A stretch of 64,000 nucleotides of DNA, taken from a virus. Location of the stretch: IMG/VR virus record IMGVR_UViG_3300005573_000055, positions 91,524 to 155,523 of that record; one strand, written 5' to 3'. The translations under genes and the position numbers were made by a program. The notes under the pieces are model-generated. The model worked only from the letters and a program-made list of their open reading frames with translations. It ran no database searches and was not told the DNA's origin. This document shows positions 7,340 to 50,700 of the stretch, one piece after another. Each line of letters begins with the position of its first letter. The first letter of the stretch is position 1.

Positions 7340-7624
7340 CTATGATAATTTGATTTTAATTAAGATATATTCAACCGCTTTGCCGTCCGGAGCAACAGCG
7401 GTTCTTAGTTCGTAGTAGTTTTTGAGTTCGAATGAGTCGAGGATCTCAGTTTTGTCCATAACCTTCTTGTTTAAGGGAACTAATTCGATAAGATAGGCTT
7501 CCCAAACTTCGCCTTCTCTGGCGAGTTTGGCATTTATAAAGGCTGGGAAGATCACCTTCCCGTCTTGAAATATCGGAGCGCTTGAGAGCTTCCCGTACTT
7601 ATCTTTTGTTACTTTGAGTTCCAT
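7340..7624 (-). CDS. hypothetical protein; N-terminal ~53 aa paralogous to 7638..8564
   Basis: Shared PIFQDGKVIFP...LAxEGEVWEA...PLNK. Confidence 0.75.
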   Translation of the reverse strand: MELKVTKDKYGKLSSAPIFQDGKVIFPAFINAKLAREGEVWEAYLIELVPLNKKVMDKTEILDSFELKNYYELRTAVAPDGKAVEYILIKIKLS

Positions 7625-7637
7625 TTTTATCTCCTTG

Positions 7638-8564
7638 TTAGTTTATAATCTCTTCTGAGAGGACGGTTTCTCTCTCTAAGCAGTGTGAAACCTCTTTGAA
7701 TTCGAGGATTTCACTGCTTAATTCTTTGAAACCTTCTCTTTCGAGGGGTAAATTGTGATCAGCTGTCCATTTATATCCAATCTGTGCTATCTTGGTATAG
7801 CAATAGCGACGTGAGTCAACTCTTGACTCACGGACATTATCCTCACTGTTAGAATATTTTGGAGCGTAGCTGCTCCATCTTTCAATAATTCTCTTTACTT
7901 TTCTGACATCGATGTCCAGCTCAAACTCTTTGGATTCGACTCTTCTTGACAGAAATTCCTTCTCTACCACCTCGAAGGTTGTAGTGTCTTTTACGAAGCC
8001 GCGGTATTCAGCGACTTCCTTCTCTATATTCTCCCAGACTTTTAATTTCTTTGCATTCAAGTCGACTTCGCAGTTGTAGTCGCTGCTGAAGACCTTTCCG
8101 GTTGCGACTACTCTGATGATTTTGTTGTCAATAGACATAACTCTCTTGTATGTCTCTATTTCTTTTTTGTATTTATCGGCGATTTCAACAGGCAGATCTT
8201 TCCAATAGAAGTAGTAATTCGTATGGTCTGCCTTTACTTTCCCACCGACTCTGTAATATTTGATGTATGAAACCCCCTCTAGTATTCTTACATATCCATT
8301 AGAATAATAGTGCTCTTTGATTTGAGGGGCCGGCAATTCGGGAAGGATCAAGCGAAATACTCCCTTGAACATAGGTTTCCCTTTGCGGTCAACCTTGTTT
8401 AAGGGAATGAGCTTTACCAGTTCGGCTTCCCAGACTTCTCCTTCTTTGGCGAGTTCTGGGTTTTCAAAGACCGGGAAGATTACCTTTCCGTCCTGAAAGA
8501 TTGGAGAGCCTGCGAGCTCTCCGAACTTATTTCTAGTTATTGTTAATTCCATTTTCATCTCCAT
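7638..8564 (-). CDS. hypothetical protein
   Basis: 308-aa ORF sharing its N-terminal domain with the downstream gene. Confidence 0.75.
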   Translation of the reverse strand: MEMKMELTITRNKFGELAGSPIFQDGKVIFPVFENPELAKEGEVWEAELVKLIPLNKVDRKGKPMFKGVFRLILPELPAPQIKEHYYSNGYVRILEGVSYIKYYRVGGKVKADHTNYYFYWKDLPVEIADKYKKEIETYKRVMSIDNKIIRVVATGKVFSSDYNCEVDLNAKKLKVWENIEKEVAEYRGFVKDTTTFEVVEKEFLSRRVESKEFELDIDVRKVKRIIERWSSYAPKYSNSEDNVRESRVDSRRYCYTKIAQIGYKWTADHNLPLEREGFKELSSEILEFKEVSHCLERETVLSEEIIN

Positions 8565-9319: not shown

Positions 9320-9607
9320 CTATTTAATCACGTCGCCTACCTTGTACTCGGGGTTGTGGCTTACTGAAACCACGTATCCCCCGAGTTTGGGGTCAAAAAC
9401 TGCGATGCTGCCGACGGTGTGCGCATACTTATGTATGAGCACTGCGGCTACCGGAAGGGATGCTGGCCCGTTGACTTTTAGCAACGGGATCCCTTTAATT
9501 TCCGGGGCGTTGTCTTTTACAAACTGAACGAGTTCGGCGTTTGTTGCCGGGTCGCCGAACCCGATCGTTAATGTGTCGTTATTAAATGACATATTGAATA
9601 ATGCCAT
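9320..9607 (-). CDS. csx3: Csx3/Crn3-family cyclic oligoadenylate ring nuclease (95 aa)
   Basis: True start ATG 9607 after AAAAGGAGG; TIGFGDPATN, KVNGPASLPVAAVLIH, AVFDPKLGGYVVSVSHNPEYKVGD match the Csx3 family. Confidence 0.85.
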   Translation of the reverse strand: MALFNMSFNNDTLTIGFGDPATNAELVQFVKDNAPEIKGIPLLKVNGPASLPVAAVLIHKYAHTVGSIAVFDPKLGGYVVSVSHNPEYKVGDVIK

Positions 9608-9653
9608 GTTAACCTCCTTTTTAAAGTTATTAAATAATAATTTATGATGAATT

Positions 9654-9709
9654 TGGCTCAGGCGGGACTTGAACACCGCTCTCTCAGGCTTCCAGCAGCC
9701 ACTGAGCCA
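9654..9709 (-). ncRNA. tRNA-like mini-element B (no anticodon arm)
   Basis: GGCUCAG-U-GGCU GCUGGA AGCC-UGAGAGA-GCGG(U)G UUCAAGU CCCGC-CUGAGCC-A. Confidence 0.65.
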
Positions 9710-9711
9710 CC

Positions 9712-10080
9712 ACACAAGCTATCTTAGTAGCTCGATAGCTTGCAGTCTCGCTGATCACCCCTTCCCTTGAGCTCCGATGCTACTATCGTTGCTCAAGGTT
9801 CCGTCGGGTTTACTCAGCTACCCGAAGCCCAATTAGCGTTACCCAGGACGCGCCACGTGGAGGCTTGGGCTTTTGCGTCCCACAACATTACTGGCTAAGT
9901 GGGACAGCCAGTGTCCGTTATGTGGCTGATCCGTGGAGCATTGCACTCCGGTGAGTGGACGCCACATCGGCCTGCTGAGGCGAGGCCACACCTTGGGTCT
10001 TCGAGCCGCTTGGGCGGAATGGGTCCACGGCTCTGAGACCCATAAACCTATAAGCCAGGCTTAGCCTAGCTTATAGGCTA
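9712..10080 (-). ncRNA. putative large structured RNA 1 (~370 nt)
   Basis: No credible ORF; successive stems, H-type pseudoknot at 9877-9912, loop-loop complementarities CUCAGC/GCUGAG and AGUAGC/GCUACU. Confidence 0.6.
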
Positions 10081-10500: not shown

Positions 10501-10866
10501 CTAGTCTAACTCGCTCCAGTCGAAGCCGTTAATTCTAACTACCGGCTTCTTCTTTGTAATCGCTGAAGCGAGTTTCCTAGCGTTGCAATACGCTGGCCGT
10601 GCACCACAATTGACGTGCAGCACTTCGGCAACGATCTCTTTCCAGTTATTCCTCTCTTTGAGACGTTGCACGTACCAGTGCTCCACGTTGGGTCGGGTAT
10701 CTTTGATGCCACTGCCCCATTTGATCTGGATAGCATAAGCTATCCCATCAATTATGACAATGACATCAATCTTGGCCTCGTGGTCAAGGCGTTTATGTGT
10801 AATCACCTCGAATCCACTATTCCTGAGCGCATCGACAATCATGCGCTCGAGGATGAGACCATTCAT
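10501..10866 (-). CDS. PD-(D/E)XK family nuclease
   Basis: E..I...L...GF.V...LDHEAKIDVIV...AIQIK pattern. Confidence 0.65.
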   Translation of the reverse strand: MNGLILERMIVDALRNSGFEVITHKRLDHEAKIDVIVIIDGIAYAIQIKWGSGIKDTRPNVEHWYVQRLKERNNWKEIVAEVLHVNCGARPAYCNARKLASAITKKKPVVRINGFDWSELD

Positions 10867-11357
10867 AATGCCCTCCCGTTGTGGTTTAGCCAGCTACGAT
10901 CTGGCTCGGGCAGCTTCTTATAGCCCTCCTGTGGGTCGAATTGATAGATCTCTACATTGAAATGATGGAGACCTATCAACATCCCTATCAGGGCCGATAG
11001 ACCAATCGGACCGCTGAGGACTAATTTTATCTTGCAATTTTGGTTTTGTGCCATAGCACTGTAAACCTCTGTTGCAAGTTTTTTATAGTCCTCGTCGGTC
11101 ACTAACATTGGTCTACCGAGCACGAGGTTGACGTCTATCAGCGTGTCAAGTTCGCCAAAGTAGGCTTTGACAGCTTCGCTAACAGGACGTCCTACCTGCA
11201 GGGCTATAATATAGTCCTTGCCGCCTTCATTGGCATATTTTTTCTTCTTGGCAATCTTGGTCTGAGACCAGATTTTAACAGTGATTGCCAAGGAGACTAA
11301 TGCCAACAAAGGCTCGGCAATAGCCCAAGCCTGGGAGATGAATTCAAAGAGGTTCAT
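10863..11357 (-). CDS. N-terminal TM helix + SAVED/CARF-like domain protein
   Basis: Hydrophobic N-terminus; KIKLVLSGPIGLSALIG...VEIYQF....Y resembles the SAVED C-terminal half. Confidence 0.55.
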   Translation of the reverse strand: MNLFEFISQAWAIAEPLLALVSLAITVKIWSQTKIAKKKKYANEGGKDYIIALQVGRPVSEAVKAYFGELDTLIDVNLVLGRPMLVTDEDYKKLATEVYSAMAQNQNCKIKLVLSGPIGLSALIGMLIGLHHFNVEIYQFDPQEGYKKLPEPDRSWLNHNGRAL

Positions 11358-11409
11358 GACTGCCTCCCGATGGCTAAACTTAGAACTGGTATAACGGTCT
11401 ATAGAATGG

Positions 11410-12231
11410 CTAAACTATCCTGCCTCCGTTATACCAGTACATGAACCCTCCTGGAGCCCATTTTGTCCTAAGCCCCATTCTCAGTTCAGGGAACTTTCTG
11501 GAAACCTCATCAAGATATTCCATAGTGGTCTCCAGCGGCAATGGTCGCCAATCAATTCCAGACACGGGCTTGTATACCCTGACTGTCCAGAATTTATTGT
11601 CGACATTGCCATGCTTAACAACCATCTCTGCGATGTGCAGGAAATCATCCAAGGTGGTTGTAGAAAATACGCATGTGCGTACATCTACAAGCACACCTTT
11701 ATTGCTTAAGATCTCCTGAACACGCAGGGAGTTGTTGAGCATTTTTTCTCCCTGACCGTTTCTGAGGCCAGCGCGCATATTGAATTCTGCGCCGTCTGCG
11801 GCCTTAAGATCAATTGCTGCATAATCCAAATACGGCAGCAGCATTTCAACAAATTTAGGACTGCTGCCATTATGCGCAATTGAAATCTTCTGGCCACGTT
11901 CAGCACAGAAGCGCGCTATATCCATAGAGTCTTTGATAAAGACACAAGGATCGCCTCCAGAAAGACGAATCCTTTCGCCTTTATCTAAGGACTCCTGGAT
12001 CAGAGAGAATATCTCTGAGGCTTTATATCTTCCGGCAGTGATTATGTCACCTTTGTCGGTGACAAACTGCCCGTCGCGTTTGCAATATGGGCAGTGGAAG
12101 TTACACCTGCCGAAAGAGATAATCCTCATCATCTCTATTTCCCTACCAAATAACTTGAGGAAATAGGCCGGTCGCACTTCTGCAGCCGGCTTTCCTCCGT
12201 AGGGAATGAGAGTGAGTATTCTCTCTTTCAT
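11410..12231 (-). CDS. radical SAM protein (PflA/NrdG activase-like)
   Basis: CNFHCPYC, SGGDP, HNGS, DYAAIDLKA, VDVRT; start ATG 12231 after GGAGG. Confidence 0.85.
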   Translation of the reverse strand: MKERILTLIPYGGKPAAEVRPAYFLKLFGREIEMMRIISFGRCNFHCPYCKRDGQFVTDKGDIITAGRYKASEIFSLIQESLDKGERIRLSGGDPCVFIKDSMDIARFCAERGQKISIAHNGSSPKFVEMLLPYLDYAAIDLKAADGAEFNMRAGLRNGQGEKMLNNSLRVQEILSNKGVLVDVRTCVFSTTTLDDFLHIAEMVVKHGNVDNKFWTVRVYKPVSGIDWRPLPLETTMEYLDEVSRKFPELRMGLRTKWAPGGFMYWYNGGRIV

Positions 12232-12290
12232 GTGGCCTCCAGGCTGGAGGTTCATGTTCATTGATTTATTTTATCTATTATCTACTATCC

Positions 12291-15029
12291 TTAATCCTCC
12301 TTTCTTAATTTAAACTTAACGCTGAAGCCAGTCGGCTTGCCAGTCTTAACACTGATGTAAGGATATACCTCGTCAACTCGGTAATATCCTTCATCAATGT
12401 TGCGGCATTCATCGCCGACTTTGAACTTCAGCTTCTGACCGCCTACTGAGATGCTAAAGGTCTTTATTTCTTTGCCATTAGCATCTCTTTCGGCGGTAAT
12501 TTCTACGAGTGAATCTCTGTGTTTTGTTCTGGCATTGATGTCCAATGCTTCGAACATTTCACAGAGATTCAGCTCGTCAGCGTATACCCGCACCTCGAAC
12601 GTTGGCAGTGCGGCATTAAAGAAGTTGCTTGTGGCAATATACCACTTCAACTCCTTGGTGCCGCCAATGCCAAGCTCGCAGAGCACCTCAAGGAGTACCT
12701 GCCATACGCCATTGATGAACAGGTATCCTTGAGATTTGCGCTTCTGCGGGTCATTGCTGGTTGCTATGTATTCGAGGACCGAATATACAACAGCCTTTTG
12801 GTCCTCTTTACATAGTGCCATGAACTGCAAAGAATACTTCTTATTAATTTCTCGTATCTTTGCAATTCTGGCATCAACGTCTCGCTTGAGCTCTTCGATT
12901 TTATTAAGAGCTGCAATTTCGCCCTTATAATCGAAGTAGCTCCTGAGTTTTCTGCCGTATTTAGCGAGACGCTCAGCAATGGCCTGCTGCTGGCGCACAC
13001 TCAGGTGCGGGTACACCTGGTCGGCAATACCAGCCTGCAGCTTGCCAAAGACCTCTTTGACAATTCCGTTCATATTTCTGACGAAATTGTCAATTATGGA
13101 GTCTTTGACAATCCGAGAATCCCCTTCCTCTCTGAAGAATCGAGGAGCAAGGAATGCAAAGCATTGAGACTGCTTGATTGCATCAATGCAAGCCTCAACC
13201 TTTACCGCCTGCTCTTCATATCCTTCAGCTGAACCCTTCTGGACTCTATCAATAATGGGTTCAAACTGGAAGGAATTCTCCTGCAGGGTCTGGTAGAGGG
13301 CCATGAGATCCTTGTCTTTGTTGCCAAAGACGAAGATCTCGACCTTTAGGGCAGCCTTAAGCATCTCAACATTGGCTGCGCGGCCAATGATGTATGCTTT
13401 GCCCGCGAAGTCTCTAACAGATTGTAATAGTTTTTCATCTTCTGTTAGAGTTGGCCCGATAGCTTTGATAGCTGTGGCGGTAAGTGTATCTACAAGACCG
13501 CTTACAGCCATGAAAGCTTTGGCCACATCTGCGGGCAGGTTGCCCTTAGGTCCGGCTGCCTGAGGAGCTTCGGCTTTAGCCTTAGCTTCCCCATCAAGAG
13601 GTGTTTCGGCAGCTGGTACCCACTCTACATTACTCCAACCAGCTTTGCGAACAATAGAATATTCGCCAAGCTGATTTGGATTTCTGTAGAGCAGATACTT
13701 GCCTCTGCCCTTCTTGATGAGGACAAAGCTATCGTCGAAATCAGGACCGCCGTGTCGGGGTTTGAGTCTGAGATACTCATCCCAGCCAACGCACACGTTG
13801 TTCTGATCGACAATAACTCTGCCTTCAGGCAGCCTTCCGAAGAATACCTTGCCATCTTCGACTTTAACGATAGATGTAAGGTATCTTCTTTTGGCCCCTG
13901 GCACGAAGACTCTGGGCCATTGGGACTCATCGGCTTTGCCGGTGCCCCATTTTGGCCCATAGAACTTCTTGCCGACCAGCCGAATAACGTCCATGACCAG
14001 AGGTCTAAAGACGCTCCAGTCTACTCCGGCTTTGATGAACTCTTTGAGTCTCCACCCGCTACTGCCAAGTGGATTGAGCTCATCTTCTTCCGGATCAACG
14101 TTGTCCGGCATTGTCTCTTCGGCATCGCCGTCGTCGATGCTGAGGATGATCTCGTTAAATTTCTCACGATCGGTGAGAGCATTAACAATATATCTCACCG
14201 TCTCACCGAGATATTTAACGAGTTTTTCGGCCCTCAGCTGACCAACTGCCAATAGATTGAGTGCAGATTGCACATCAATCATGACGTGGTCGTTGCCGTG
14301 GACCTCCTCAGCAATCGCCCAGACAACATCACGAGCTTTGACGCCGTGGTCTTTGCACCACTGAGCGTTAATGGCAAGCTCGCGTTTGATGTTGCTTTCG
14401 GCGATATAAATATCGTTAACAGGGACTTTGTTGGAAACAACAATGTGTCCCTTAACGAATTTATCACCGAGCAACATCGTGATGCTGCCTCGACGGCGAA
14501 CGCCGAGTAGCGCTGCGGCGCCGCTGCCAGCAACTACCTGGCCGTCTAAGGCTATGTAACCAGGTATATACTTAATATTAATATACTCTGGTATAGCCTT
14601 GAGGCCTTTGGCCGAAGATAGCCTCAACAGTCGGCCGATTCTCTTTCCAGCCGTCTGTTTGTTGGCATCTTCTTTGGCCTTAATCGGTAGCTGCATCAGC
14701 TTTCCAGCACTGTCAAATATTTTGACAATGTACAGATCTGTATCTTTGTGATAACAGATCGTACTATTGTCAAAATGATTTGCAATGCTGTCAAGCTGCG
14801 GCTTGGTGTCATTGCCGATAGTCGAGTGTTCAACTATCGTCAAGACCCAGCCTTCAGCAAAAGCATCTATAAATCCTGGTCTGAGATCAGGATTATAGAA
14901 CTTTTGCTGAACTGGCAGCGCTCCGATCAATTCCTTTTCGGCAGCTAAGATGGCTTGCTTGCTTTCTCCGTAGAGATAAGCAGTGAAGCCATCCTGATAG
15001 TTGCCGATTAGGAATGCCTTAACTGTCAT
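12291..15029 (-). CDS. large hypothetical protein, candidate divergent two-barrel nucleotidyl polymerase
   Basis: Start at ATG 15029 after AAGGAGG; HGGPDFDD followed by YRNPNQLGEY. The CDS is certain, the function speculative. Confidence 0.45.
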   Translation of the reverse strand: MTVKAFLIGNYQDGFTAYLYGESKQAILAAEKELIGALPVQQKFYNPDLRPGFIDAFAEGWVLTIVEHSTIGNDTKPQLDSIANHFDNSTICYHKDTDLYIVKIFDSAGKLMQLPIKAKEDANKQTAGKRIGRLLRLSSAKGLKAIPEYINIKYIPGYIALDGQVVAGSGAAALLGVRRRGSITMLLGDKFVKGHIVVSNKVPVNDIYIAESNIKRELAINAQWCKDHGVKARDVVWAIAEEVHGNDHVMIDVQSALNLLAVGQLRAEKLVKYLGETVRYIVNALTDREKFNEIILSIDDGDAEETMPDNVDPEEDELNPLGSSGWRLKEFIKAGVDWSVFRPLVMDVIRLVGKKFYGPKWGTGKADESQWPRVFVPGAKRRYLTSIVKVEDGKVFFGRLPEGRVIVDQNNVCVGWDEYLRLKPRHGGPDFDDSFVLIKKGRGKYLLYRNPNQLGEYSIVRKAGWSNVEWVPAAETPLDGEAKAKAEAPQAAGPKGNLPADVAKAFMAVSGLVDTLTATAIKAIGPTLTEDEKLLQSVRDFAGKAYIIGRAANVEMLKAALKVEIFVFGNKDKDLMALYQTLQENSFQFEPIIDRVQKGSAEGYEEQAVKVEACIDAIKQSQCFAFLAPRFFREEGDSRIVKDSIIDNFVRNMNGIVKEVFGKLQAGIADQVYPHLSVRQQQAIAERLAKYGRKLRSYFDYKGEIAALNKIEELKRDVDARIAKIREINKKYSLQFMALCKEDQKAVVYSVLEYIATSNDPQKRKSQGYLFINGVWQVLLEVLCELGIGGTKELKWYIATSNFFNAALPTFEVRVYADELNLCEMFEALDINARTKHRDSLVEITAERDANGKEIKTFSISVGGQKLKFKVGDECRNIDEGYYRVDEVYPYISVKTGKPTGFSVKFKLRKED

Positions 15030-15077
15030 GGCAGCCTCCTTCATGCTTGCCATGCAGTTTTTGGCTTCTCTTCTATT

Positions 15078-37641: not shown

Positions 37642-38856
37642 ATGTTTTCATTCAAAGACATTAAAGACATTCCACTTCAAGATTATATCGACACCTGGAG
37701 AACTGGATATTACACAGATCCAGACACAAAAAATGTGTATGAAGTATCAATGGAAGATGCTCTTGCGCATCCAAATAGTACTCAGTTCTTCCAGATAACT
37801 GTTGAAACATTAGTGCGCGAAGCTGTTGAACCAGCTTTAGTTGCAACACGATTGCTTACTAGAGTTAATTACAAACCTGGTATGACTGTATCTTTCCCTT
37901 CAATTGGTGCTATAGTAGCTGATGATGTAAACGAGGCAGGTGAATATCCAGAATACTCACTGAACTTCGGAAGCGGTGCTCAAATCATTACAATCGGCAA
38001 AGCAGGATTGGCTATTAAGTTCACAGATGAAATGAAGAGATATAATCAGTATGATGTATTGAACTATTACTTAAGAGCAATGGGTCGAGCTTTAGCAAGA
38101 CACAAAGAAAAGAAATTCTTTGCTATGTTGTCTCATATGGGCATCGTAACACATGATAATGTAAATCCAAGTCAGTCTGTATTCGGAGTCACAAGAGGAC
38201 TTTCATTAAGTGGTACACCTAATGGTGCTTTAATTGCCGACGATATTTATGAAGCTTATGGTCAGTTACTTATGAATGGCTTTACTCCAAATGCATTGCT
38301 TGTTCACCCACTTACATTTACAATGTTCTTAAGTGATCCTGTATTGAGAGCTTTTGCTATTAATCATGGCGGTGGAGTATGGTTCAACGGCTGGAATGGT
38401 AATGCAGCAGCTCAATATCCATGGCCAAGAGGTCAAATGGGTAAAATGGGTCCTGGTCCACAAAAAGTAACATCTTCTACTGATCCAAAAACCATTGGCG
38501 ATATTGAAGCTACAATGAGAATTCCTGACTACTTTGGACTACCACTTACAATTATCGTAAGCCCTGCTGTTCCATACAACCATGCAACCAAATTAACAAA
38601 TATTTACCTTGTTGATACAGAAAATATTGGAGCTTTGATTGTTGATGAAGAACCTACTATGGAAGAAATTCCAGATAGAATGAGAGATATTACAAAGATT
38701 AAGATACGTGAAAGATATGCTTTAGCTCCATTTAATGAAGGAAACGCTGTTGCTATATTGAAGAACGTTAAAGTTACACCTAATGAATTATTACTTCCAA
38801 CTGTTGCAGCTGCTGTTAATGTTAATGCTATTGACAGAAGCAATCCAGCAGTTTAA
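37642..38856 (+). CDS. major capsid protein
   Basis: 404 aa; HK97-like features (VREAVEP, E.GEYPE, K.GL....TDEM, GRALARHKE, IKIRERYA). Confidence 0.85.
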   Translation: MFSFKDIKDIPLQDYIDTWRTGYYTDPDTKNVYEVSMEDALAHPNSTQFFQITVETLVREAVEPALVATRLLTRVNYKPGMTVSFPSIGAIVADDVNEAGEYPEYSLNFGSGAQIITIGKAGLAIKFTDEMKRYNQYDVLNYYLRAMGRALARHKEKKFFAMLSHMGIVTHDNVNPSQSVFGVTRGLSLSGTPNGALIADDIYEAYGQLLMNGFTPNALLVHPLTFTMFLSDPVLRAFAINHGGGVWFNGWNGNAAAQYPWPRGQMGKMGPGPQKVTSSTDPKTIGDIEATMRIPDYFGLPLTIIVSPAVPYNHATKLTNIYLVDTENIGALIVDEEPTMEEIPDRMRDITKIKIRERYALAPFNEGNAVAILKNVKVTPNELLLPTVAAAVNVNAIDRSNPAV

Positions 38857-47778: not shown

Positions 47779-50700
47779 TTAATCGAATAAGACAAGCTGC
47801 TATAGCATCAGAAGATGAAAATTATCGCAGGGATCCTTTTGCATCTTTTGGTGCTGCAGCTGGTAAATTTGCTGCTGGTTACCTGCTCAACCGTGCACTG
47901 CTTTACGTTCCTACGGGCATTGACCGCAGACATCTACGTTATCTGTGGCATTATAGAGTTCCGCCTGGTATACCTGTTACTCACTATCCTGGATTATATG
48001 CAACCCATAGTGCATCTGTAAGAGAGGTTATCTGGAATGCTATTAAAGCTACGGAAGAGACTCTCTTTAAGATGCCGAGAGCATTTTCTGCTTCTGCTCT
48101 GTATGGATCTGGTATTTATTCACGCGGCAAATTTGTAGTTCCTGAGTTCTTTGAAAATTATGGCAATGTCCAATACTTAAATCGTATTGGAGCTGATCTT
48201 TCGAATATAGATTTCAAAAGAGGCGTTAGGTTTGAACGCGGTATCCTCTATGGCTTTGATGTATTTGGCAATGAGCATGTTATTTTAGAGTCTGCACGAG
48301 CTTATCCTGCATATTGGGGTAAAACACTTGGACTTCAGGGATTTACTCCAAAGGCTATTCGTGCTTTATATAGTAAATACAATATACCTATAGGCCAGCA
48401 GGACGTTATATTTACACGCGGTGGACTGCGTGGAGTTCGTGAAATTTTCGAAGCCATAGCTACTGTAGCTGCTGAAAACTACGTCAAACTGCTTGATAAT
48501 CCATTTGCTCTGTGGCTTGAACTTACTGGTAAGAGTATTGAAAATGCAAGTCCAGCTGTGCGGCGGCTTGCTGAGAAATTTTTCCTGAAAGATCAATTTG
48601 GTGTAGGCGGTAAAACATTCCTAAGAGGCGACTATCGTAATATACTAAGAACACATTTTTTGCGCGGACTGCCTAAGATTGCAGCTGGTATTATTGGTTA
48701 TAAAACTCTTTCACACTTAGTTCAACTTGCAACTGGATATACGATAGGTGGACACTTTGCTAATATATATCAAGGCACCACACTTGCTTACACTAACATA
48801 TCCGACATAACAGGGCTTACAGCTTACAGTAAAGCTCAGGAAAAAGTTGCACCTGGCTCAACTTCACTTGCTGGTCTGCTTGCTTTCCCGTTGTCATTTG
48901 GCATCTTTGGAGCTACAACGGGTAAGATCATAGACATAATGGAGCGTGAAAGTATTCAGCATGGCGGTGAAGCTCCGATATTCTTTAGGCGTATTGCTTC
49001 AAAACTTGAAGAAGCTCCAAATGTTATTGGCCGTATAGCATCAAGAATGCATCTATCTTCATATAGAAGAGTTGGTGCTTTTGGTTTAATGGGTGCTTTG
49101 GCTGGCGGTTTGGCTGTACTGCCATTCCTGCCAGGTGTTATTGGTTCAAAGAGAGATACAGAAGAACTTGAGCGTATTTATTCAGGTGAGCAGCTTGTAG
49201 AGAAACGGCGCGGTGCTTTCTGGGAATTTGGAATATCACCGTGGGAAGGAGATGATATAGAATACTTTGCGCCGCATTGGACTGTAAAGCTTAAAACAGA
49301 TGCAGCAACAAAAGGAAGACTACCTGAAGAATATTACAACAATAGATTTGCACTCTGGCTCGAAAGATTATTTAATCCTTATGCTCTTGAAGAAGCTTTA
49401 GATGAAGAACGTCCTTATACATTTTGGGGACCCTCAGATTGGGGTTTAGGGCTGGCAGAAAAACTGCTTTTGCCTGTTAAATATGCACTGAAACCTCTTG
49501 CACTTGCTCATCCAGAAGGGCTTGAAGGCATCCATCCGAGACTCCGCCCGCAGCTTCGCCCTGAGATGCCAGAAGAACTGAAGTCCCAGTATATCGATGA
49601 AAGAGGTTATGTAATTAGACCTCAACTGCCCACATCGCTTCAATCCATGCTTGCTGAAAACATGTATTCAGCAATGGATCTTGCAGGTGTGCAGGGATTT
49701 TTATTTCAAACCCTGTATAGCAAGTTAAGCGGTGAGCAGTCAGCTTTAACTCCGCTGGCTGAATATGAAACTTCTGGCAGAATTCTATCGATGCAAAGAA
49801 GATACTGGGATTTAGATATTGGCGGCGGGCTTGGCACAACAGAAGCTTACAGACGTCTTAACCCAGATAGACCTTATGAAACCCAATATATCCCATCTCC
49901 TTTGCGTAATAAAATGCCATCATGGATGCCTGAAGAATTTCAATATGGCGATCCATATACGCTCATACCAGAAGGTGAATTAAGACTGCCAGGCCGAGGC
50001 TATGCAGCTTTGCATCCTGAATTAGAAGGCATTGAACCTGAAGAGTATCCAGCTGCATATAGAATGGCTATATTAAATGACGTAGCTCCCTACTCTACAG
50101 GATTTTACAAATATAAATATCTTACAGAACAGCAAATTCAACAAGGCAAGATAAGTGAAAGTCAGCTGCGCATCTATCAAGAAGCTTTGCGTCAGCGTGA
50201 GATGATGATGAATGATGAGCAGTTTAATTATGGCGAAGGACCTGTTGGTTCTTACTATCTAACATTAAAAAAGATAGGACGTGCACTGCCTACAGAAGCT
50301 CTTTATCCGTTTGCACCTATACACAAGTTTGCCGGTCCTGTAGATCCACTTACAGAATATTATTCAAGAGAATTGCTTGATAAGCAATTTAAGCTATGGC
50401 AAAATCCTATTAAAGACTTTATCATTCCAGCTATTAATCGAACTGTAAATTTGTTAAATCTTGGTGATACCAGTTTTATACCGCCTGATGTTGCAAAGCG
50501 TTATGAAATTGAGTCTTACTTTAATGCAATGGAGTATCAAAAGAATGAAAACCTAAGACGTCTTGCAGCAGAATATGCTAAAGCAGGCTTTTATGAAGCC
50601 GCAAGTTACATCCGAAGCGGCATTCGTGATACATTATATGAGCACTCTCCATACGAAGATATAGATACACTCAAAAATCTTCTTCCACGTCGGCAGCGTC

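What the first reader, a model, noticed from the sequence alone, without database searches (positions are those of the whole stretch)
10501..12231. Radical SAM + TM-SAVED-like + PD-(D/E)XK nuclease gene trio
Seen: three tightly linked genes (the last two overlap ATGA). The middle protein has one TM helix and a half-SAVED-like LxLSGP..L...IG...IYQF motif. No glycyl-radical partner for the activase-like enzyme is in the window. Known: SAVED/CARF domains bind, and sometimes cleave, cyclic oligonucleotides. Inference: either a second signal sponge or ring nuclease alongside Csx3, or a phage-borne signalling/defence module with a radical-SAM-made nucleotide signal and membrane and nuclease effectors.
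Basis: inference. Interest (0 to 1): 0.7.

Follow-up and report, generated by a model that had tools for sequence, protein, structure and literature searches.

The report
Phage radical-SAM plus membrane half-SAVED pair
A large phage carries a conserved gene pair, an unstudied radical SAM enzyme and a membrane-anchored half-size sensor of bacterial alarm nucleotides, which on phages and plasmids sits beside enzymes that destroy type III CRISPR alarm signals, so it is probably a new counter-defence module.

Summary
Three co-oriented minus-strand genes are present, the last two share ATGA, and the middle protein has an N-terminal membrane helix plus one SAVED lobe (Pfam SAVED above its cut-off; the best fold matches are all SAVED domains).

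The conserved unit is a pair, not a trio. The radical SAM gene and the TM-half-SAVED gene are adjacent in 22 of 67 family loci, in either order and sometimes overlapping. The 121-aa nuclease-like gene has no relatives and is never a partner elsewhere.

No nrdD, PFL-type or glycyl-radical gene, no 7-deazaguanine genes, and no Cas10 or SMODS cyclase is in the 155-kb phage record.

The radical SAM family lies next to several type III CRISPR ring-nuclease families (AcrIII-1/Csx16, Crn4, Csx3) and Mvol_0529 proteins in 30 of 57 independently fetched loci, against 0 of 28 control loci. This phage also carries Csx3 and a B116-like gene.

The histidine that Csx15 and AcrIII-2 use for cleavage is arginine here, which favours sequestering or sensing the signal over cutting it.

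Best reading (about 0.5): a counter-defence module against cyclic-oligoadenylate signalling, with unknown radical chemistry.

Earlier reports of this scan noted the same pairing on other DNA. I found no paper on it.

The parts
11410..12261 (-). Radical SAM enzyme (283-aa ORF; probable true start at M11, base 12231, giving 273 aa). It belongs to a distinct family of about 265 aa and has a glycyl-radical-activase-like fold.
   Evidence: Pfam Radical_SAM 1.7e-10. NrdG2 59.6 bits against a cut-off of 131, and viperin 33.6 against 180. More than 190 relatives. Model pLDDT 92.9. Best PDB folds are PFL-AE with TM 0.61-0.70. Invariant C53/C57/C60 and GGDP.
10863..11357 (-). Membrane-anchored single-lobe SAVED (Csx15-like 'half-SAVED') protein of 164 aa. 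It has a TM helix at about residues 10-30, a basic stretch, then a cytoplasmic alpha/beta lobe at residues 40-156.
   Evidence: Pfam SAVED above its cut-off. PADLOC SAVED4 models at 8e-19 and 2e-17. Model pLDDT 83. VIA-align top 9 hits are all SAVED domains, Z 8.1-10.1, including AcrIII-2 and CalpL. Best PDB sequence hits are AcrIII-2 and CalpL. 23 relatives.
10501..10866 (-). 121-aa PD-(D/E)xK-like ORF, translationally coupled (ATGA) to the gene above it. It is specific to this phage and is not part of the conserved module.
   Evidence: ATGA overlap. Weak NERD/Mrr_cat/Hjc matches. Atlas structural look-alikes are YraN and Hjc-type resolvases. No relatives found.
9320..9715 (-). Csx3/Crn3 ring-nuclease homologue, downstream on the same strand and separated from the trio by about 0.8 kb of non-coding sequence.
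   Evidence: Pfam Cas_csx3 2.9e-11, PADLOC Csx3 7e-17. A Csx3 homologue (8e-21) lies directly upstream of TM-SAVED and the radical SAM gene in the independent contig L034.

Best explanation
The locus is the core of a phage counter-defence island aimed at cyclic-oligoadenylate (type III CRISPR-type) signalling.

Shown:
- Gene 2 encodes one SAVED/Csx15-type lobe behind an N-terminal membrane helix.
- Gene 1 encodes a radical SAM enzyme of a distinct family that is co-inherited with gene 2.
- Across phages and plasmids, this radical SAM family sits on the same strand beside ring nucleases of several unrelated families.
- This phage has no cyclase and no glycyl-radical enzyme of its own.

Inferred:
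- The lobe faces the cytoplasm (basic residues follow the helix).
- It dimerises and stacks like Csx15 or SAVED to sandwich cA4-type messengers at the membrane.
- Because the cleavage histidine of Csx15 and AcrIII-2 is arginine here, it sequesters or senses the messenger rather than cutting it.
- The radical SAM enzyme supplies a second, radical-based activity against the same pathway. Its substrate is unknown. Candidates are SAM-AMP, a cyclic oligoadenylate or its linear products, ATP, or a host protein.

Gene 3 is a lineage-specific passenger, probably a small resolvase or YraN-type nuclease.
For: - Adjacency: 22 of 67 family loci, upstream or downstream, with overlaps of 4-47 nt in six loci.
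- Distances between radical SAM proteins and between TM-SAVED proteins correlate (Mantel r 0.63; 0 of 2000 permutations reach it).
- Paired radical SAM genes lie on both sides of the midpoint root of the family tree.
- Other recurrent same-strand neighbours of the radical SAM gene:
  - Csx16/STIV_B116-like, PF08960 (AcrIII-1 type): 8 loci, including Fusobacterium phages.
  - Unk_01, which is Crn4 (PMC12830947): 6 loci.
  - Csx3-like: 5 loci, plus a true Csx3 in L034.
  - Mvol_0529 family, a type III-B accessory (PMC6546367): 3 loci, including a C. botulinum plasmid.
- 30 of 57 family loci have such a neighbour, against 0 of 28 control loci reached through unrelated radical SAM genes in the same scans. 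Among loci with at least 700 nt on both flanks the figure is 28 of 40.
- This phage also has Csx3 and a B116-like gene at G000:C1:82856-83212.
- No Cas10 (Csm1 model) or SMODS cyclase in six phage records that carry the radical SAM family.
- Fold and best PDB sequence hits point to AcrIII-2 and CalpL.
- AcrIII-2 S194 aligns with the invariant S115 (PMC12751052).
- The His column is Arg in the main clade and His in a sister subgroup (PMC13148439).
Against: - No binding or activity has been measured for either protein, and the radical SAM substrate is wholly inferred.
- The pair also sits in Saccharibacteria chromosomes between RNase Y, trigger factor and the CCA-adding enzyme.
- None of 12 MAGs that carry TM-SAVED shows a Cas10 above cut-off. 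The pair can therefore exist where no type III CRISPR is detected, although the MAGs are incomplete.
- TM-SAVED occurs without the radical SAM gene in several MAG loci, beside DUF4145 and helicase genes that look like defence islands.
- Membrane anchoring is typical of effectors such as Cam1, Csx23 and Panoptes 2TM-SAVED, not of known sponges.
- Gene neighbourhood alone cannot separate a working partnership from clustering in accessory islands.
Confidence: 0.5

Rival explanations
1. A self-contained two-gene signalling or abortive module. The radical SAM enzyme makes or alters a nucleotide-derived ligand. The TM-half-SAVED protein is its receptor and a membrane-disrupting effector, like Cam1, or is held in check by a constitutive ligand, like Panoptes.
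For: - Tight coupling and co-inheritance of the pair.
- The architecture (TM helix plus cytoplasmic cyclic-nucleotide-binding lobe) matches known membrane effectors; this rests on knowledge of Cam1, Csx23 and Panoptes (PMC11974786 abstract).
- Chromosomal copies occur in Saccharibacteria with no Cas10 detected.
- No canonical cyclase in the phages, so the radical SAM enzyme is the only candidate signal maker.
- Many conserved Arg and Lys residues in the enzyme.
Against: - The same radical SAM family pairs with effector-less ring nucleases of other folds (Csx16/B116, Crn4, Csx3) in place of or besides TM-SAVED. That fits a common target pathway better than a private ligand-receptor pair.
- The loci are phage and plasmid accessory regions rich in anti-CRISPR-type genes.
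- No radical SAM enzyme is known to make a SAVED or CARF ligand.
Confidence: 0.2
2. The two genes have unrelated jobs. TM-half-SAVED is a viral Csx15-type sponge or ring nuclease (AcrIII-3-like). The radical SAM enzyme serves some other phage need in anaerobic hosts, such as nucleotide or nucleic-acid modification or activation of a host enzyme. Adjacency only reflects clustering of accessory genes.
For: - About a third of well-flanked radical SAM loci have no recognised ring-nuclease neighbour.
- TM-SAVED occurs without the radical SAM gene.
- The fold is closest to protein-directed activases.
- Hosts with family members are anaerobes: Fusobacterium, Clostridium, Thermoanaerobacterium.
Against: - Overlapping reading frames, both gene orders, correlated divergence, and the 30/57 against 0/28 enrichment.
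- No glycyl-radical enzyme and no QueC or TGT in the record.
- Phage Fnu1 has its own NrdG beside nrdD in addition to the family radical SAM gene.
Confidence: 0.2
3. TM-half-SAVED is an active ring nuclease that uses other residues (R57, S60, K64, S115, R154). The module is simply a third ring nuclease of this phage, and the radical SAM gene is incidental.
For: - The invariant S115 aligns with AcrIII-2 S194.
- A C-terminal Arg (R154) lies near the position of AcrIII-2 R96.
- Some Csx15 proteins are slow nucleases (PMC13148439).
Against: - The His that is essential in AcrIII-2 (H128A is inactive; PMC12751052) and conserved in Csx15 is Arg in this clade.
- The sister subgroup that has the His lacks the C-terminal Arg.
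Confidence: 0.1

Closest known systems
Csx15 ring nucleases and sponges, including TMH-Csx15 fusions and the proposed viral vCsx15/AcrIII-3 (PMC13148439; bioRxiv 10.64898/2026.10.26.761840)
   Same: A single lobe equal to half a SAVED domain, with a five-stranded sheet and a beta4-beta5 hairpin. Csx15 proteins dimerise and stack head to tail on cA4. Some members only sequester the messenger. N-terminal TM-helix fusions and viral copies have been reported.
   Different: No Csx15 profile was on hand; the hits are to SAVED and SAVED4 models. The conserved His after beta1 is Arg. There is only one C-terminal Arg instead of a cluster. The protein is paired with a radical SAM enzyme, which neither paper mentions.
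AcrIII-2, a viral SAVED ring nuclease derived from CalpL (PDB 9R8S; PMC12751052)
   Same: Virus-encoded and effector-less, in the SAVED4/CalpL lineage. It is the best PDB sequence hit and a fold match at Z 9.0, rmsd 2.4 over 94 residues. The Ser of the S-x-P loop is conserved.
   Different: AcrIII-2 is soluble and has two lobes in one chain. Here there is one lobe plus a TM helix. The H128 equivalent is Arg.
Membrane effectors with a cytoplasmic cyclic-nucleotide sensor: Cam1, Csx23, Cap14/3TM-SAVED, Panoptes 2TM-SAVED
   Same: N-terminal TM helix or helices followed by a cytoplasmic CARF/SAVED-type sensor. Cap14 and 3TM-SAVED are among the fold hits.
   Different: Those proteins are host-encoded beside a cyclase. 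Here the gene is phage-borne, has no cyclase, has half the sensor, and sits beside ring nucleases.
Glycyl-radical-enzyme activases (PFL-AE, NrdG)
   Same: Best structural match (TM 0.61-0.70). Motifs of the CxxxCxYC, GG[DE]P, xNG and DxK type are present; calling them typical of activases is from memory.
   Different: Far below the family cut-offs. It has extra N- and C-terminal elements with conserved Arg, Tyr and Trp. There is no glycyl-radical partner. It coexists with a genuine NrdG in phage Fnu1.
Prokaryotic viperins (pVip)
   Same: Partial HMM matches (PADLOC pVip 6e-11). The best PDB sequence hit is a viperin-like enzyme at 1e-6.
   Different: 33.6 bits against a cut-off of 180. Only the radical SAM core aligns. 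Viperins are host defence genes.

Membership tests
SAVED domain (Pfam PF18145) | Profile match above the curated cut-off | tested here: met
   30.7 bits against 26.2, E 3.1e-7. 20 of the 23 listed relatives carry PF18145.
SAVED domain (Pfam PF18145) | Two fused CARF-like lobes in one chain | tested here: not met
   Only profile positions 67-186 of 190 match. The model has one five-stranded lobe after the TM helix. The lobe aligns to a single lobe of Cap5, CalpL and AcrIII-2.
Csx15 (half-SAVED ring nuclease or sponge) | Single lobe with five strands, lacking one alpha-beta unit of CARF, with a beta4-beta5 hairpin | tested here: met
   DSSP of the model gives strands 48-54, 72-75, 109-114, 135-141 and 145-148. 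Compared with the descriptions in PMC13148439 and the 2026 preprint.
Csx15 (half-SAVED ring nuclease or sponge) | Conserved Ser-x-His after beta1 (H11/H13/H8), equivalent to AcrIII-2 H128 | tested here: not met
   The column reads G-R57-P in the window protein and in the main clade. It reads G-H in 5 of 6 sister-subgroup members. The assignment is by position after beta1, not by a structural superposition with Csx15.
Csx15 (half-SAVED ring nuclease or sponge) | Sequence-profile membership | tested here: inconclusive
   No Csx15-named model hit in the PADLOC, NCBIfam or Pfam scans. I could not confirm that these libraries hold a Csx15 model, and no Csx15 chain appeared in the PDB searches.
AcrIII-2 / Crn5 | Composite active site: His (H128) and Ser (S194) on one face, Arg/Lys (R96, K99) on the other | tested here: not met
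   S194 aligns with the invariant S115. R154 lies near the R96 position. The His is replaced by Arg.
Cyclic-oligonucleotide binding | Binds cA3, cA4, cA6 or a related ligand | not testable with these tools
   Only conservation of loop residues at the C-terminal edge of the sheet is available (R57, S60, E61, K64, S115, G116, P117, Q126).
Glycyl-radical-enzyme activase (NrdG, PFL-AE) | Score above the family cut-off | tested here: not met
   NrdG2 59.6 against 131; PFLA 25.2 against 232.
Glycyl-radical-enzyme activase (NrdG, PFL-AE) | A cognate glycyl-radical enzyme in the same genome | tested here: not met
   No NRDD, Gly_radical or PFL-like match in the record, which is 88% complete. No NRDD match above cut-off in three other phage records, two of them complete genomes and one 100% complete by CheckV. 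Fnu1 has nrdD plus a separate NrdG.
Radical SAM superfamily | CxxxCxxC cluster motif and a GGE-type SAM motif in a partial TIM barrel | tested here: met
   C53, C57, C60 and G102-G103-D104-P105 are invariant. Pfam 41.8 bits against 29.5. High-confidence model.
Prokaryotic viperin | Score above the NCBIfam equivalog cut-off | tested here: not met
   33.6 bits against 180.
QueE / 7-deazaguanine pathway | Companion genes QueC and TGT/DpdA in the genome | tested here: not met
   No QueC or TGT match in the record. The QueE models score far below cut-off.
PD-(D/E)xK nuclease (gene 3) | Profile match, or the fold with an E...D...(E/Q)xK motif | tested here: inconclusive
   NERD 16.8 against 22.1 and Mrr_cat 16.4 against 21. 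Atlas structural look-alikes are YraN, Hjc and Mrr at TM 0.53-0.68. E7, D34 and Q47-x-K49 were read by eye.

The most novel reading that the evidence does not exclude
The radical SAM family is a new class of anti-CRISPR or anti-signalling enzyme. It would use radical chemistry to destroy or corrupt a type III CRISPR second messenger, or its synthesis. Examples are reductive cleavage of SAM-AMP bound in place of SAM, attack on a cyclic oligoadenylate, or production of a 3'-deoxy chain-terminating ATP analogue. It would work together with a membrane-tethered Csx15-like messenger trap.
Probability: 0.25. Interest if true: 0.9.

Novelty: new variant of a known kind. Interest (0 to 1): 0.72.

Why it matters
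All known viral answers to type III CRISPR signalling are hydrolytic ring nucleases, phosphodiesterases or sponges.

A radical SAM enzyme that travels with four or five different ring-nuclease families on phages and plasmids of anaerobes would point to a different chemistry in this arms race. It would also give a ready candidate for a counter to signals that ring nucleases do not touch, such as SAM-AMP.

The membrane-anchored single-lobe SAVED protein with Arg in place of the catalytic His is a natural test case. It could show whether Csx15-type lobes act as sponges, sensors or pore-formers when tethered to the membrane.

Both proteins are small, and both can be tested with established cA4 and type III CRISPR assays.

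Tried and rejected
- The trio as a conserved unit: rejected. Gene 3 has no relatives and is absent from all loci.
- NrdG or a glycyl-radical activase with a phage-encoded partner: rejected.
- QueE / 7-deazaguanine pathway: rejected.
- Homology of the upstream 920-aa and 287-aa window proteins to the ~900-aa protein and the TrmB-like neighbour in the MAG loci: none. The 920-aa polymerase-like gene is not a conserved neighbour of the radical SAM gene.
- A radical SAM fusion to the SAVED lobe in long family members (P0138, P0142): none.
- DNA and protein searches with TM-SAVED against the phage and plasmid collections and IMG/VR: no hits. Relatives came only from the protein databases, MAG contigs and metagenomes.
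- PDB profile search with the ~900-aa MAG neighbour: nothing.
- Guessing a PADLOC accession for Csx15: it returned Cas3d, so I abandoned this. TIGR02584 gave no match.
- A PADLOC scan of 78 further radical SAM neighbours added only single hits: a methyltransferase, a Cas12f/TnpB-like protein and one Csx1-like protein.
Full report
**What is there.** The window is the last 64 kb of a 155.5-kb IMG/VR virus record that CheckV rates 88% complete. A phage capsid gene lies at 37642-38856. On the minus strand, four genes follow one another:
- a 920-aa gene at 12291-15053;
- a radical SAM gene at 11410-12261;
- a 164-aa gene at 10863-11357;
- a 121-aa gene at 10501-10866.

Relatives of the radical SAM protein, and its Atlas record, begin at residue 11. 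The stop of the 164-aa gene and the start of the 121-aa gene share ATGA, and a GGGAGG precedes both starts. No minus-strand terminator-like site lies within or between the three genes. After about 0.8 kb without a credible ORF comes a Csx3/Crn3 homologue at 9320-9715.

**The middle protein.**
- It scores above the Pfam SAVED cut-off, but only over the second half of the profile.
- It hits the PADLOC models SAVED4--SAVED (8e-19) and SAVED4--SAVED_TM (2e-17).
- A model built on 23 relatives (pLDDT 83) shows a long N-terminal helix, then one lobe of five strands and three main helices.
- An exhaustive structural search puts only SAVED domains in the top nine: Cap5 at Z 10.1, then Cap14, AcrIII-2, CalpL and Cap4. 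CARF proteins follow. Foldseek agrees.
- A profile search of PDB sequences gives AcrIII-2 and CalpL as the best, marginal, hits.
- Every relative has a hydrophobic N-terminal segment followed by a run of Lys/Arg, and some have two such segments. By the positive-inside rule, the lobe is cytoplasmic; this is an inference.
- The family is small: 93 representatives in 1.8 billion proteins, nearly all 100-200 aa.

**Relation to published proteins.**
- AcrIII-2 is a soluble, two-lobed viral SAVED protein that cuts cA4. It uses H128 and S194 on one face and R96 and K99 on the other (PMC12751052).
- Csx15 is a single lobe, described as the likely ancestor of SAVED. It stacks head to tail on cA4. It has a conserved Ser-x-His after strand 1 and C-terminal arginines, and it is either a slow nuclease or a pure sponge (PMC13148439).
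- A 2026 preprint reports TM-helix fusions and viral copies of Csx15, for which it proposes the name AcrIII-3 (10.64898/2026.10.26.761840).

In the family studied here, the Ser of the S-G-P loop (S115) is invariant and aligns with AcrIII-2 S194. The position after strand 1 is Arg (R57) in the window protein and in the main clade. It is His in five of six members of a divergent sister subgroup, and that subgroup lacks the C-terminal Arg. No member therefore shows the full AcrIII-2-type site. I read the window protein as a binder (sponge or sensor) rather than a nuclease. That reading is an inference from sequence.

**The radical SAM enzyme.**
- It has the invariant CxxxCxxC and GGDP motifs and many conserved Arg/Lys, with Tyr and Trp in N- and C-terminal extensions.
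- It falls far below every curated family cut-off: NrdG2 59.6 against 131, viperin 33.6 against 180.
- Its model (pLDDT 92.9) is closest to the pyruvate formate-lyase activase, ahead of NifB, BlsE and viperins.
- The record holds no NRDD, Gly_radical or PFL-like gene, and no QueC or TGT.
- Fusobacterium phage Fnu1 has nrdD with its own NrdG next to it, and in addition a member of this radical SAM family about 12 kb away.

The enzyme is therefore neither a phage NrdG nor a QueE.

**Conservation of the pair.**
- Loci fetched with TM-SAVED from species genomes have the radical SAM gene directly adjacent in 6 of 14, in either order.
- Loci fetched independently with the radical SAM profile from viral and metagenome contigs contain TM-SAVED next to it.
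- Over all loci the pair is adjacent in 22 of 67. Many contigs are only 1-3 kb, so this is an undercount.
- Six loci have overlapping reading frames.
- Divergence of the two proteins is correlated (Mantel r 0.63; 0 of 2000 permutations reach it).
- Paired radical SAM genes lie on both sides of the midpoint root of the family tree.
- The 121-aa gene has no relatives at all and is never present elsewhere. Its predicted structure resembles YraN/NERD/Hjc-type small nucleases. It is a passenger in this phage.

**The wider neighbourhood.** This is the most telling result. Besides TM-SAVED, the recurrent same-strand neighbours of the radical SAM gene are:
- Csx16/STIV_B116-like proteins, the AcrIII-1/Crn2 type, in 8 loci including Fusobacterium phages;
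- PADLOC Unk_01, now known as the ring nuclease Crn4 (PMC12830947), in 6 loci;
- weak Csx3-like proteins in 5 loci, and a true Csx3 in L034;
- the type III-B accessory family Mvol_0529 (PMC6546367) in 3 loci, including C. botulinum plasmid pCB111;
- a solo Cas5c-like gene in 3 loci.

Several loci stack three of these around the radical SAM gene. At least one such neighbour is present in 30 of 57 family loci, against 0 of 28 control loci that the same scans reached through unrelated radical SAM genes. Among loci with 700 nt or more on both flanks, the figure is 28 of 40. For comparison, published surveys find ring nucleases in far fewer than 1% of phage genomes (PMC12409355, PMC12830947).

This phage itself carries Csx3 downstream and a B116-like gene (PF08960, 6.5e-13) 19 kb upstream, outside the window. 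Six phage records that carry the radical SAM family have no Cas10 (Csm1 model) and no SMODS cyclase.

**Interpretation.** The best-supported reading is a counter-defence island against cyclic-oligoadenylate signalling. In it, the membrane-tethered lobe traps or senses the messenger, and the radical SAM enzyme adds an unknown second activity against the same pathway.

The enzyme's substrate is not known. SAM-AMP, cyclic or linear oligoadenylates, ATP, or a host protein are candidates by reasoning only.

Evidence that pulls the other way:
- In Saccharibacteria the pair sits in the chromosome between RNase Y, trigger factor and the CCA-adding enzyme.
- Twelve MAGs that carry TM-SAVED show no Cas10 above cut-off.
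- TM-SAVED also occurs without the radical SAM gene, next to DUF4145 and helicase genes.
- A membrane anchor is typical of effectors.

A self-contained signalling or abortive module therefore stays a live rival. So does mere clustering of unrelated accessory genes.

**Novelty.** Half-SAVED lobes, their TM fusions and viral SAVED ring nucleases are published. Full-text searches found no paper that links radical SAM enzymes with ring nucleases, AcrIII proteins, SAM-AMP degradation or SAVED proteins in type III CRISPR. The Csx15 preprint does not mention radical SAM. Earlier reports of this scan noted the same pairing, and radical SAM genes beside ring nucleases, on other DNA. My counts, control and tree were made independently here.

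Noticed in passing
G000:C1:82856-83212 (L112:2857-3213, minus strand), outside the window: The same phage encodes a 118-aa STIV_B116-like protein (PF08960, 6.5e-13), the AcrIII-1/Crn2 type. Together with Csx3 and the half-SAVED protein, that makes three different ring-nuclease-type genes in one phage.
   Followed up: partly
L003, L004, L007, L011, L013, L014 (e.g. L004:2373-5069 and L004:5182-6084): In candidate-phyla and Gammaproteobacteria MAG loci, TM-SAVED lies near a conserved unannotated protein of about 900-1100 aa (with a C-terminal methyltransferase domain in L007) and a TrmB-family regulator. No Pfam or PDB sequence match was found for the large protein.
   Followed up: partly
L023:4776-5393, L024, L060: A solo Cas5c-like gene (PADLOC Cas5c 1.9e-43) lies directly after the radical SAM gene and before an endolysin in viral contigs, with no other cas genes in view.
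   Followed up: no
L016:4158-4814 (C. botulinum plasmid pCB111), L033, L038, L045: Proteins of the Mvol_0529 family (a type III-B accessory annotated 'DNA binding C-ter.') recur beside the radical SAM gene. They might be regulators of these islands, like the anti-CRISPR-associated Aca proteins.
   Followed up: no
L034:506-2485: An independent metagenome contig has Csx3, TM-SAVED and the radical SAM gene in a row. These are the same three components as in the window, without the 121-aa gene or the non-coding spacer.
   Followed up: partly
window 7340-7624 and 7638-8564: The adjacent 94-aa and 308-aa minus-strand ORFs are paralogous (phmmer 8.5e-21). Neither has a confident family match (the 94-aa ORF was not scanned).
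   Followed up: no
G001:C1:51155-54504 (Fusobacterium phage Fnu1): The nrdD match is split into two pieces, with an in-frame TAG in one of them. This suggests an intervening element or a broken gene. A separate NrdG-like gene lies at 48781-49200.
   Followed up: no
G008:C16:24757-25275 (Sulfurimonas MAG, same contig as L006): A 463-aa ORF weakly matches only the palm region of Cas10 models (about 30-33 bits). It lies roughly 15 kb from the TM-SAVED gene and could be a GGDEF-type or minimal polymerase protein.
   Followed up: no
L062:5033-5410, L063, L077: A WDGH-domain protein (PF25311, 9e-38) recurs two genes after the radical SAM gene in the clade paired with Csx16.
   Followed up: no
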